Positions 42,105-45,100 of a stretch of 64,000 nucleotides of DNA are shown here, piece after piece; within the stretch, counting starts at the first letter, position 1; every line of letters starts with the position of its first letter. Source of the DNA: Escherichia coli (lineage in GTDB: Bacteria > Pseudomonadota > Gammaproteobacteria > Enterobacterales > Enterobacteriaceae); assembly GCF_050920415.1 (NCBI RefSeq), contig NZ_CP169309.1; one strand, written 5' to 3'. A program made the position numbers.

Positions 42105-45100
42105 CGTAGCGCATCAGGCAGTTTTGCCTTTGCTATCAGTCTCAAGGGCCGCGAAAGCGGCCCTTTTTTACTTAGTAGAGATAAACGGAACTGTACTGCC
42201 GGGGATCATGGTATCGGGTAGCTTACCGTCCCAACGCTCAGCAGTGGTGAGGGCAACAAGTCCGGGATTATCCCGCAGAGCTTCACCGCGCAGGCGGATC
42301 GCTTCTGCTTCAGCCGCACTTTTTAAACGAATAGTTTCAGCCTCTGCCGCGCCTCTTACGCGAATAGTCTCAGCTTCTGCTTTGGCTGCCGCTAGTTTAC
42401 TGTCTGCTTCTGCCTGGGCCTGAGTTACCGCTATTTGCGCCTGGATTTTCTCTGTTTCCAGATTTTGCTTACGTGTGGCAATGGCGACTTCTGCTTTCAT
42501 TCGATCTTCAATCGATTTTTCATAAGCGTCAGAAAAATCAATATTTTCAATCTGGACACCATCAATCACCACCGGGCCAACAACGGCTTTACGCATTGCA
42601 TTTTGCAGATCCTGAACCAGTTTTGTACGATCCTGTACCGCGCTGATGGCGGTATATTGGCCGAAAACGTTCTCCAGTTGAGTTGGCAACTGACGGACAA
42701 TCAGACGATCTTTTAATGCTTCAATGGTGTTGTAGGTGGTATAAACCGCGCCTGCTTCTGAAGGTTTAATGTGGAAGCTGACTGATACTGTCATTTGTGC
42801 CGGTTGCTGGTCGCGGCTGTAGGCCTGTAATCCCTGATAAACCACAGCCTGATTACGCGTGGAAATTTTCTCTACGCTTTCCATAAAAGGGATCTTAAAA
42901 CCCAGACCCGGCTCGGCAACTTTTACGATTTTTCCGTAGCGCAGCAAAATGCCGCGTTCACCTTCATTAACGGTGTAATACGAGAGAAATGGCAGCACAA
43001 CCACGGTAAGCACGCCAATGGCGATAGCAATAGATTTTTGTGGGCGAAATGAGGTTATTGAAACAGGCGCTTTCATGAGAATCTTCCTTGAGTAAAGTGT
43101 GGGAATATGTCACATGAGGTGAGGAGAAAACAGCCAACAGGTGAGAATTCAGAATCTATAAAGGGGGAGAGCGAAAAACATCGGCTAAAAAAGTATGTTT
43201 TCGAACATTCAATAGATAAATAGAGATATGCATCACAAATACATAGGCAGATAAAACATTGGTTTTGTGATAAACATAACAAACACAAACTTGACTTTAT
43301 AAGTATAAATTTCATGTTGTTGTTATTTAACATTTTATTATTTTGGTTCATGTTTTTTTTCTTCTCGCGTGCCCAATTGCTTTCATTAAATCGCACGAGT
43401 ATTTTATTTTTACCGCCGGACGGTACCCTAAAAATAAAATAAGGATAATTTATGCGGCTTATTGATTATTTTCCAGAATCATCAATCTCAGTTATACATT
43501 CAGCAAAAGATTGGCAGGAAGCTATCAATTTCTCGATGGCATCATTGCTGGATAAAAACTATATCAGCGAGAATTACATTCAGGCTATTAAAGATTCCAC
43601 CATTAACAATGGCCCTTATTATATTCTCGCACCAGGCGTGGCAATGCCTCATGCGCGACCGGAATGTGGGGCGCTTAAAACCGGGATGTCTTTGACGTTA
43701 CTTAAACAAGACGTTTATTTTCCGGGGAATGACGAACCGATTAAATTACTTATCGGTCTTTCTGCTGCTGATGCCGATTCGCACATTGGCGCTATTCAGG
43801 CGTTAAGTGAATTGCTGTGCGAAGAAGAAATACTTGAACAACTCTTAACTGCAACATCAGAAAAACAATTAGCGGACATTATCAGCCGCGAATAATGACT
43901 CTCTCCTCTACAGGATAATATTATGGAAAACAAGTCTGCTCGTGCAAAGGTCCAGGCTTTTGGGGGCTTTTTGACGGCAATGGTCATCCCCAATATTGGT
44001 GCTTTTATTGCCTGGGGTTTTATTACTGCATTATTTATTCCTACTGGTTGGCTGCCTAACGAACATTTCGCCAAAATTGTCGGCCCGATGATTACCTATT
44101 TATTGCCCGTAATGATTGGTTCTACCGGTGGCCATTTAGTCGGCGGTAAACGCGGCGCAGTCATGGGCGGAATAGGGACAATTGGTGTAATCGTCGGCGC
44201 AGAGATTCCGATGTTCCTTGGCTCAATGATCATGGGACCGTTAGGTGGGCTGGTCATAAAATATGTCGATAAGGCACTGGAAAAACGCATACCTGCTGGT
44301 TTTGAGATGGTTATCAATAACTTCTCATTAGGTATCGCTGGGATGCTCCTTTGTCTGCTGGGTTTTGAAGTTATCGGCCCGGCGGTGTTAATTGCCAATA
44401 CTTTCGTCAAAGAGTGTATTGAGGCGCTGGTACATGCGGGCTATCTGCCTTTGCTGTCAGTCATCAATGAACCGGCGAAAGTGCTTTTCCTCAATAACGC
44501 GATAGATCAGGGCGTCTATTACCCGTTGGGGATGCAACAGGCTTCAGTTAACGGTAAATCCATCTTCTTTATGGTGGCGTCCAACCCTGGGCCTGGCTTA
44601 GGACTGCTGCTGGCGTTTACTTTGTTTGGTAAAGGGATGAGTAAACGTTCTGCGCCCGGGGCGATGATTATTCACTTCCTCGGTAGGATCCACGAACTGT
44701 ATTTCCCGTATGTGCTGATGAAGCCGCTGACCATTATTGCCATGATTGCCGGCGGTATGTCTGGCACCTGGATGTTTAACTTACTGGACGGTGGTCTGGT
44801 GGCTGGTCCAAGTCCGGGGTCTATCTTTGCTTACCTTGCACTGACGCCGAAAGGCTCGTTCCTGGCGACAATTGCCGGTGTTACGGTAGGTACCCTGGTG
44901 TCCTTTGCTATCACTTCCGTAATACTGAAGATGGAAAAAACGGTGGAAACGGAGAGCGAAGATGAGTTTGCGCAGTCCGCCAATGCGGTTAAGGCGATGA
45001 AACAAGAAGGTGCATTCTCGTTAAGCCGTGTTAAGCGTATTGCCTTTGTTTGCGATGCGGGAATGGGCTCCAGCGCGATGGGCGCAACCACCTTCCGTAA

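What the first reader, a model, noticed from the sequence alone, without database searches (positions are those of the whole stretch)
43077..43451. Strongly AT-rich divergent spacer ahead of the cryptic cmtBA operon
About 375 bp with long A/T tracts between the divergent SPFH gene and cmtB, in contrast to flanking coding DNA. This is the kind of sequence usually bound by H-NS and would fit cmtBA being transcriptionally silent. The 107-codon low-complexity ORF that the track places here is very unlikely to be real.
Basis: inference. Interest (0 to 1): 0.25.

Follow-up and report, generated by a model that had tools for sequence, protein, structure and literature searches.

The report
H-NS-silenced, CRP-bound cmtB control region
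This AT-rich gap between a prohibitin-like gene and the cryptic mannitol-type sugar-uptake operon cmtBA is an ordinary control region: published E. coli K-12 data show the operon is kept off by the silencing proteins H-NS and StpA and bound by the activator CRP.

Summary
Region 43077-43451 is the exact gap between the prohibitin/SPFH gene and cmtB. At 32.5% GC it is the most AT-rich 375 bp of the 64-kb window (52% GC).

In published MG1655 RNA-seq, cmtB gives 2-5 counts in wild type. It rises about 60-fold in a Δhns ΔstpA mutant and about 23-fold with netropsin, and is flagged as lying in an H-NS/StpA chromosomal hairpin. A separate ChAP-seq study lists cmtBA-yggPFDC as an H-NS-bound unit.

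The 107-codon ORF is not real. It is broken in four other alleles, matches no protein family, and is not annotated in an identical genome.

- The spacer is composite. Only the last 82 bp is shared near-identically by almost all E. coli. The rest travels with the SPFH gene, present in 1788 of 5426 genomes.
- Two CRP sites sit 222 and 178 bp upstream of the cmtB ATG. Their positions are conserved in ten Escherichia alleles. Published ChIP-seq, SELEX and a lacZ fusion show CRP binding and activation.
- Curvature and H-NS motif content are unremarkable.

This is an ordinary, largely known kind of control region.

The parts
43077..43451 (.). Whole divergent spacer between the prohibitin/SPFH gene and cmtB; 32.5% GC
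   Evidence: No gene is annotated here by PGAP in the 100% identical genome NZ_CP169399.1.
43077..43175 (-). SPFH-proximal part (about 40% GC). It holds the ribosome-binding site AAGGAAG (43083-43089 on the plus strand), a conserved block GGAATATGTCACAT (43102-43115, reading TGACATATT on the minus strand, a possible extended -10) and a conserved block AATTCAGAATCTATAAAGG (43146-43164). K-12-type genomes lack this part.
   Evidence: Alignment A3 and conservation profile. The 43146-43164 block is also recognisable upstream of the SPFH gene in Pseudocitrobacter, which has no cmt genes. The promoter assignment is inference.
43190..43369 (+). Distal cmtB regulatory region, about 26% GC. It is highly diverged between lineages (73-92% identity among SPFH-type Escherichia alleles other than E. 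albertii; about 50% to K-12 and to E. albertii). It is colinear and almost free of indels, with conserved islands.
43193..43219 (.). Conserved island GTATGTTTTCGAACATTCAATAGATAA. Its function is unknown. It holds the only match to the H-NS 10-mer with two or fewer mismatches (TAGATAAATA, starting at 43213).
43222..43237 (.). CRP site 1 (AGAGATATGCATCACA), centred 222 bp upstream of the cmtB ATG. It is homologous to the published K-12/ETEC site CGTGTTGTAGATCACA.
   Evidence: PWM score 12.4 here and 8.5-16.9 in all ten alleles at the same alignment columns. CRP ChIP-seq peak in ETEC H10407, FAT 16. SELEX-chip peak in K-12.
43266..43281 (.). CRP site 2 (TGTGATAAACATAACA), centred 178 bp upstream of the cmtB ATG and 44 bp from site 1.
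   Evidence: PWM score 15.4, the third best in the 64-kb window after the known nupG and galP sites. At least 8.8 in nine of ten alleles, including K-12 (12.6); lost in the N44 allele (3.4).
43290..43298 (.). Invariant TTGAC block (CTTGACTTT). It could be a -35 hexamer or a factor site; unresolved.
43320..43330 (.). Most conserved distal block, TTGTTATTTAA (97% column conservation). Function unknown.
43370..43451 (+). Proximal 82 bp, near-identical (about 98%) in 5366 of 5426 E. coli genomes. It holds the only sigma-70-like promoter conserved in all ten alleles (TTGCTT 43377-43382, 17-bp spacer, TATTTT 43400-43405), a perfect 13-bp inverted repeat (43400-43412 / 43429-43441) around a small GC hairpin (43412-43424), and the cmtB Shine-Dalgarno AAGGA (43441-43445).
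   Evidence: The promoter is predicted only; no transcription start data were found.
43073..43396 (-). Mechanical 107-codon ORF; not a gene.
   Evidence: Interrupted by 4-11 stops or frameshifts in the same frame in four other alleles. Only a sub-threshold Pfam hit. Not annotated by PGAP.
43452..43895 (+). cmtB (PTS EIIA, mannitol family), first gene of the silenced operon. It is 41% GC overall and its 5' end is part of the AT-rich block.
   Evidence: NCBIfam equivalog NF007358, 323.6 bits against a cut-off of 192.
42168..43076 (-). Prohibitin/SPFH (Band_7) gene, divergent from cmtB. Accessory in E. coli: present in 1788 of 5426 genomes.

Best explanation
The spacer is the shared control region of the prohibitin-family gene and the operon cmtBA-yggP-glpX(yggF)-fumE(yggD)-yggC.

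It has three parts:
- an SPFH-side leader/promoter segment (43077 to about 43175);
- a hyper-AT-rich distal cmtB regulatory segment (about 43190-43369) with two tandem CRP sites;
- an 82-bp proximal segment (43370-43451), almost invariant, with a weak sigma-70 promoter and the cmtB ribosome-binding site.

Proposed mechanism: H-NS, backed up by StpA, coats the roughly 0.5-kb AT-rich tract (spacer plus the start of cmtB) and folds it into a repressive filament or hairpin. This keeps the operon essentially off. cAMP-CRP bound at the two sites gives the promoter its residual activity and probably acts against the silencing.

Shown in published K-12/ETEC data: very low expression, de-repression without H-NS and StpA or with netropsin, CHIN overlap, an H-NS-bound transcription unit, CRP binding, and a CRP-dependent lacZ fusion.

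Shown here: the composition, the composite structure, the conservation of CRP-site positions, and that the ORF is not real.

Inferred: that the same holds for this SPFH-linked allele, where the promoter lies, and that CRP counter-silences.
For: Composition. It is the only stretch below 40% GC between 40000 and 47000.

Silencing in K-12: cmtB, cmtA and yggP show log2FC +5.9, +4.9 and +4.9 in the hns stpA double mutant, and +4.5, +4.8 and +4.8 with netropsin. cmtB gives 2-5 counts in wild type. cmtB and yggP are flagged as overlapping a CHIN. The transcription unit cmtBA-yggPFDC is flagged as H-NS-bound.

CRP: an ETEC ChIP-seq peak with FAT 16 lies upstream of cmtB; only the yibI, mtlA, ppiA/tsgA and fdhD/fdoG peaks score higher in the portion of the table read. 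The K-12 SELEX site is the same sequence, and cmtB promoter-lacZ activity falls in a crp mutant. Two sites are conserved at -222 and -178 from the ATG in ten alleles; the half-sites are kept while the 6-bp centres vary.

The proximal promoter is conserved in 10 of 10 alleles. There is almost no indel between 43190 and 43430 in ten alleles despite up to 50% substitution.
Against: - No H-NS occupancy or expression data exist for this allele or strain. All functional data are from K-12-type alleles, whose distal segment is only about 50% identical.
- The published tables do not give base-level H-NS positions, so the binding could centre on cmtB rather than the spacer.
- De-repression in the double mutant or with netropsin could be partly indirect.
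- The H-NS 10-mer motif is not enriched: 1 hit against 1.06 expected.
- Predicted curvature is average over most of the spacer, with only a 95-97th percentile bump near 43200 (the wedge parameters were taken from memory).
- The simple promoter scan found no site.
- The CRP sites would lie at about -138 and -182 from the predicted proximal start, which is unusually far for direct activation.
Confidence: 0.75

Rival explanations
1. This is an ordinary CRP-dependent divergent promoter region. Its AT-richness is just promoter-typical composition, and H-NS/StpA act elsewhere or indirectly.
For: CRP binding and CRP-dependent activity are documented. The H-NS motif is not enriched and curvature is unremarkable. 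The single hns mutant gives only a 3.6-fold increase. The galP upstream region is nearly as AT-rich.
Against: De-repression is 60-fold in the hns stpA double mutant and 23-fold with netropsin. cmtB carries the CHIN flag, and the transcription unit is flagged as H-NS-bound. The spacer plus the cmtB 5' end is the only stretch of the operon below 40% GC.
Confidence: 0.12
2. The spacer encodes a protein: either the 107-codon minus-strand ORF, whose stop overlaps the SPFH start as ATGA, or the 42-codon plus-strand upstream ORF (43314-43442) that ends 9 nt before cmtB.
For: Both ORFs exist mechanically. The ATGA overlap resembles translational coupling. The K-12 sequence is open in the same plus-strand frame.
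Against: The 107-codon ORF is broken by many stops and frameshifts in four alleles, matches no protein family and is not annotated. The 42-codon ORF is interrupted or lacks a start in the C325, SCPM, E. whittamii and E. albertii alleles. Variable sites are spread evenly over codon positions, 23/23/24.
Confidence: 0.02
3. The conserved proximal 82 bp acts as an RNA leader (attenuator, antiterminator target or sRNA site) of a long transcript that starts near CRP site 2.
For: A class II geometry is possible: site 2 would be centred about 42 bp upstream of a start near 43316, with TATAAA at 43304-43309. The 13-bp inverted repeat could form a hairpin just before the Shine-Dalgarno. Other PTS operons such as bgl use leader RNAs (from general knowledge).
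Against: There is no Rfam match. No compensatory changes occur in 22 predicted pairs. The fold is no more stable than shuffled sequence, z = -0.37. TATAAA is not conserved in other alleles.
Confidence: 0.06
4. This is decaying, functionless DNA next to a dead operon.
For: The distal part has high substitution divergence. The operon has no known physiological role (from general knowledge).
Against: Conserved islands and CRP sites sit at fixed positions, the region is almost free of indels, and the proximal 82 bp is about 98% identical across E. coli. All operon genes are intact.
Confidence: 0.05

Closest known systems
H-NS/StpA-silenced AT-rich loci that form chromosomal hairpins (CHINs) in E. 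coli K-12 (PMC12460168)
   Same: AT-rich tract, near-zero expression, weak effect of losing hns alone, strong de-repression in the hns stpA double mutant and with netropsin. cmtB itself is flagged as overlapping a CHIN.
   Different: The published data are gene-level flags for the K-12 allele. The window carries the SPFH-linked allele, whose distal half is about 50% identical to K-12. No hairpin coordinates could be read.
Cryptic bgl (beta-glucoside PTS) operon of E. coli: H-NS silencing plus a CRP site (from general knowledge, not checked here)
   Same: A cryptic PTS operon preceded by AT-rich DNA. CRP is the activator, and H-NS keeps the operon off in wild type.
   Different: No leader antiterminator RNA was detected. 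No evidence that IS insertion or point mutations activate cmt; the IS621 copy in this strain lies beyond the SPFH gene and is a pseudogene. Two tandem CRP sites lie far upstream rather than one promoter-proximal site.
mtlA (mannitol PTS) control region of E. coli
   Same: The same PTS family, multiple strong CRP sites in a long divergent intergenic region, and an MtlR-family gene in the operon (fumE/yggD, PF05068).
   Different: No sequence homology beyond the CRP half-sites: local alignment scores of 21-23 fall within the shuffle range. The mtlA region is 42.5% GC, against 32.5% here.
CRP/H-NS co-regulated promoters of ETEC (Haycocks 2015, PMC4287617)
   Same: The same study reports a strong CRP peak upstream of cmtB and genome-wide H-NS binding to low-GC DNA.
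   Different: That paper does not analyse cmtB further. H-NS occupancy at cmtB is not given in the text or tables read.

Membership tests
H-NS/StpA-silenced AT-rich regulatory region | AT content well above the genome average over several hundred bp | tested here: met
   32.5% GC against 52%; the lowest trough in 64 kb; 29-33% GC in all ten alleles.
H-NS/StpA-silenced AT-rich regulatory region | H-NS occupancy in vivo | tested here: inconclusive
   For K-12 only: the transcription unit cmtBA-yggPFDC is flagged as H-NS-bound and cmtB is flagged as overlapping a CHIN. No base-level coordinates were readable, and there are no data for this allele.
H-NS/StpA-silenced AT-rich regulatory region | De-repression of the downstream genes when H-NS (and StpA) are removed or displaced | tested here: met
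   Published MG1655 RNA-seq: cmtB log2FC +1.84 (hns mutant), +5.92 (hns stpA double mutant), +4.52 (netropsin). cmtA and yggP behave alike. K-12 allele only.
H-NS/StpA-silenced AT-rich regulatory region | High-affinity nucleation motif (TCGATAAATT-like) or strong intrinsic curvature (supportive, not obligatory) | tested here: not met
   One hit with two or fewer mismatches against 1.06 expected in shuffles. The bend index is average apart from a 95-97th percentile bump near 43200.
CRP-activated promoter | Match to the CRP consensus TGTGA-N6-TCACA | tested here: met
   Sites at 43222-43237 (12.4 bits) and 43266-43281 (15.4 bits). Training sites have a median of 13.1. Only 3% of shuffles of the region reach 10.
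CRP-activated promoter | CRP binding shown experimentally | tested here: met
   Published ChIP-seq (ETEC, FAT 16) and SELEX-chip (K-12) at the homologous site 1. K-12-type allele only.
CRP-activated promoter | Transcription depends on crp | tested here: met
   Published cmtB promoter-lacZ fusion is lower in a crp mutant. K-12 allele only.
CRP-activated promoter | Site centred at a canonical distance (-41.5, -61.5, ...) from a mapped transcription start | not testable with these tools
   No cmtB start site was found in the one TSS data set searched. Predicted geometries are ambiguous.
Protein-coding gene (107-codon ORF) | Reading frame kept in related sequences, homologues or a family match | tested here: not met
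Structured cis-regulatory RNA leader | Rfam match, or a conserved structure with compensatory changes | tested here: not met

The most novel reading that the evidence does not exclude
The cmtB control region may exist in E. coli as two ancient haplotypes. The K-12 type lacks the SPFH gene; the other type carries it. Their distal 180 bp is only about 50% identical, as far apart as E. coli and E. albertii. It abuts, at 43369/43370, a proximal 82 bp that is 98% identical. Both haplotypes nonetheless keep two CRP sites at exactly -222 and -178 and almost no indels. This would point to a spacing-constrained CRP/H-NS nucleoprotein switch. Its sequence would be free to drift, or would have been exchanged between species, while its geometry is held fixed. 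The unexplained invariant blocks (43193-43219, 43290-43298, 43320-43330) might then serve as operators for the operon's own MtlR-family protein (YggD/FumE).
Probability: 0.2. Interest if true: 0.4.

Novelty: already known. Interest (0 to 1): 0.2.

Why it matters
It explains why cmtBA is called cryptic. The genes are intact, but the operon sits behind an AT-rich tract that H-NS and StpA jointly silence, while a CRP-dependent promoter is still in place. For annotation, it removes a spurious 107-codon ORF. It also shows that the spacer is partly accessory DNA tied to the prohibitin gene, so K-12 data transfer only partly to strains like this one. The conserved CRP geometry across very diverged alleles makes this a convenient natural case for studying how activator sites persist inside fast-evolving silenced DNA. 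It does not, however, reveal a new kind of system.

Tried and rejected
- Simple consensus promoter/terminator scan of 42900-43600: nothing found.
- Rfam at a permissive E-value: no hit in the spacer, only REP-derived ES036/naRNA4 hits near 40688-40820.
- RNA structure of the proximal region: no covariation and no excess stability.
- Paralogy of the cmtB and mtlA control regions: rejected, since alignment scores fall within the shuffle range.
- 42-codon upstream ORF (43314-43442), which looked open in K-12 as well: rejected, being broken in four alleles with no codon-position bias.
- H-NS 10-mer motif enrichment: none.
- Wedge-model curvature: unremarkable (parameters recalled from memory, so only the relative ranking is meaningful).
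- TSS data: no cmtB entry in the supplements of PMC3415461.
- H-NS ChIP-seq supplements of PMC3064808 are not held.
- Text searches for cmtA or cmtB together with hns found no dedicated study.
- Assigning a -10/-35 pair to the invariant TTGAC and TGTTAT blocks failed: the spacing does not fit sigma-70.
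Full report
**What is at the coordinates.** Region 43077-43451 is exactly the gap between two divergent genes. On the minus strand is a 302-aa Band_7/SPFH gene (42168-43076; Pfam PF01145, E = 5.6e-32). On the plus strand is cmtB (43452-43895; NCBIfam equivalog NF007358, 323.6 bits against a cut-off of 192). cmtB is followed by cmtA, yggP, glpX/yggF, fumE/yggD and yggC. The window is 100% identical over 10 kb to E. coli strain MFDS1022581 (NZ_CP169399.1). In that genome PGAP annotates no gene in the spacer.

**The observation.** The spacer is 32.5% GC, against 52.0% for the window. Only 0.29% of all 375-bp windows are as AT-rich, and the global minimum of the 64 kb lies here. The core 43180-43360 is 24% GC, with A/T-only runs of up to 14 bases. 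The AT-rich block runs into the first ~150 bp of cmtB. It is the only stretch below 40% GC between 40000 and 47000.

**The 107-codon ORF.** This ORF (43073-43396, minus strand) ends in an ATGA overlap with the SPFH start codon, which looks like translational coupling. However, in four other alleles of the same spacer the frame is broken by 4-11 stops or frameshifts. It has only a sub-threshold Pfam hit. It is not annotated in two RefSeq genomes carrying the identical sequence. A 42-codon plus-strand ORF (43314-43442) looked interesting because K-12 is open in the same frame. It is interrupted or lacks a start codon in four alleles, and variable sites are spread evenly over codon positions, 23/23/24. 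I rejected it.

**The spacer is composite.** Megablast against 5426 complete E. coli genomes finds the last 82 bp (43370-43451) at about 98% identity in 5366 genomes. The full spacer occurs in only 1788, always together with the SPFH gene. Its alleles are 100% (11 genomes), about 90% (513) or 80-90% (1267) identical. K-12 has no SPFH gene; tkt is followed by a 313-bp gap before cmtB.

The order tkt, SPFH, cmtB is also found in E. whittamii, a cryptic Escherichia clade and E. albertii. Pseudocitrobacter has tkt next to SPFH but no cmt genes. The SPFH-containing arrangement is therefore probably ancestral in the genus, and the K-12 type is probably a loss.

A ten-sequence alignment shows that the K-12 gap is colinear with window 43190-43451 and almost free of indels. 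Identity, however, is about 50% in the distal 180 bp and 98% in the proximal 82 bp, with a sharp boundary at 43369/43370. Conserved islands stand out:
- 43193-43219;
- the two CRP sites;
- an invariant TTGAC at 43291-43295;
- TTGTTATTTAA at 43320-43330, with 97% column conservation.

**CRP.** I built a CRP weight matrix from 101 published ETEC ChIP-seq sites, leaving out the cmtB site. It finds two sites in the spacer:
- 43222-43237, scoring 12.4 bits;
- 43266-43281, scoring 15.4 bits, the third best in the whole window after the known nupG and galP sites.

Only 3% of shuffles of the region reach 10 bits. The sites are centred 222 and 178 bp upstream of the cmtB ATG in the window and at the same distances in K-12 (14.0 and 12.6 bits). 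At the same alignment columns, site 1 scores 8.5-16.9 in all ten alleles and site 2 scores at least 8.8 in nine of ten. The half-sites are kept while the 6-bp centres vary. This is the pattern expected of a site under selection.

Published experiments agree:
- Haycocks 2015 (PMC4287617) reports a CRP ChIP-seq peak upstream of cmtB in ETEC H10407, with site TGTGATCTACAACACG and FAT 16. Only the yibI, mtlA, ppiA/tsgA and fdhD/fdoG peaks score higher in the part of the table I read.
- Shimada 2011 (PMC3105977) found the same site by SELEX-chip in K-12. A lacZ fusion of the whole tktA-cmtB gap was less active in a crp mutant.

**H-NS.** Sequence proxies add little. The TCGATAAATT motif occurs once with two or fewer mismatches, against 1.06 expected. 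A wedge-model bend index, using parameters I recalled from memory, is average across the spacer except for a 95-97th percentile bump near 43200.

The decisive evidence is published. In MG1655 RNA-seq (PMC12460168, Supplementary Table 1), cmtB has 2-5 normalised counts in wild type. The other conditions give:

| Condition | cmtB counts | log2FC | padj |
|---|---|---|---|
| hns mutant | 9-14 | +1.84 | 0.004 |
| stpA mutant | – | +0.88 | not significant |
| hns stpA double mutant | 132-217 | +5.92 | 2e-51 |
| netropsin | 49-76 | +4.52 | 2e-29 |

cmtB is flagged both as a horizontally transferred gene and as overlapping a chromosomal hairpin. cmtA (+4.86 in the double mutant, +4.79 with netropsin) and yggP (+4.87, +4.79; also hairpin-flagged) follow the same pattern. 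Higashi 2016 (PMC4720273) flags the transcription unit cmtBA-yggPFDC as H-NS-bound by ChAP-seq. All ten alleles keep 29-33% GC, so the same is likely here, but that remains an inference.

**How it most likely works.** H-NS, with StpA as an effective backup (the single hns mutant gives only 3.6-fold), coats the ~0.5-kb AT-rich tract and holds it in a repressive filament or hairpin that blocks initiation. cAMP-CRP at the two tandem sites supplies the promoter's activity and probably opposes the silencing.

The promoter itself is not mapped. The only sigma-70-like element conserved in all ten alleles is TTGCTT (43377-43382), a 17-bp spacer, then TATTTT (43400-43405). That would put the CRP sites at about -138 and -182, which is unusually far. 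A class II promoter at site 2, with a start near 43316, is geometrically possible, but its -10 element is not conserved. I found no support for an RNA leader mechanism.

The mtlA control region also has several CRP sites but is not homologous. The operon's fumE/yggD product belongs to the MtlR family (PF05068, E = 3.4e-52). It is therefore a candidate, untested, for binding the unexplained invariant blocks.

**Comparison and verdict.** This is a member of a well-known kind: an AT-rich promoter region silenced by H-NS/StpA and activated by CRP. The closest analogue from general knowledge is the cryptic bgl PTS operon. The functional facts for the K-12 allele are already in published tables, so the novelty is low.

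The part worth a note is evolutionary. Two deeply diverged haplotypes of the distal regulatory segment coexist in E. coli, with strictly conserved CRP-site geometry next to a nearly invariant proximal segment.

- Interest: 0.2.
- Confidence in the main explanation: about 0.75.

Noticed in passing
window 43369/43370 (boundary); 43190-43369 compared with L002:2828-3000: There is a sharp identity step between K-12-type and SPFH-type E. coli: about 50% identity in the distal 180 bp next to 98% in the proximal 82 bp. The K-12 type is as far from the other E. coli alleles as E. albertii is. This suggests an old recombination breakpoint or an introgressed haplotype.
   Followed up: partly
window 43400-43412 and 43429-43441: A perfect 13-bp AT-only inverted repeat (TATTTTATTTTTA / TAAAAATAAAATA) flanks a small GC hairpin (43412-43424). 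It overlaps the predicted -10 element and ends at the cmtB Shine-Dalgarno. It is conserved in all E. coli alleles and shortened in E. albertii. As RNA it is no more stable than shuffled sequence, so it could be a protein operator.
   Followed up: partly
window 40921-41900 (about 40900-42100): An IS621 (IS110 family) copy is inserted in the REP-rich gap between tkt and the SPFH gene. Its transposase is split into 215-aa and 82-aa ORFs and is annotated as a frameshifted pseudogene in the identical genome. Some other strains carry an intact IS621 at the same place, and one has an IS3 element inside the SPFH gene.
   Followed up: partly
window 40689-40712 and 42144-42165: The same 22-bp GC-rich palindromic hairpin (AAGGGCCGCGAAAGCGGCCCTT) occurs just after tkt and just after the SPFH gene, bracketing the REP/IS621 segment. 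K-12 has a different tkt terminator hairpin.
   Followed up: no
window 40688-40820: Rfam matches to the REP-derived sRNA families ES036/CssrF (39 bits, just above the gathering score) and naRNA4 (below the gathering score) lie immediately downstream of tkt.
   Followed up: no
window 38649-46603: The whole locus of this strain is unusually diverged from K-12 for E. coli core genes: the tkt 3' end is 95.4% identical, cmtA 95.2% and yggP 93.4%. cmtB alleles within E. coli go down to 87%.
   Followed up: no
window 47587-48096: fumE (yggD), the fifth gene of the cmt operon, is a full-length MtlR-family protein (PF05068, E = 3.4e-52). The operon thus mirrors mtlA-mtlD-mtlR and may encode its own regulator.
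   Followed up: partly
window 14144-14159 and 31222-31237: The CRP matrix recovers the published nupG and galP CRP sites as the two top hits of the window. The galP upstream region (about 31061-31560) is the second most AT-rich trough.
   Followed up: no
L010 3874-4000 (Pseudocitrobacter vendiensis): tkt and the SPFH gene are adjacent in Pseudocitrobacter, but cmt genes are absent. The block TTCAGAAT..ATAAAG upstream of SPFH is shared with Escherichia, which marks it as an SPFH-side signal.
   Followed up: partly
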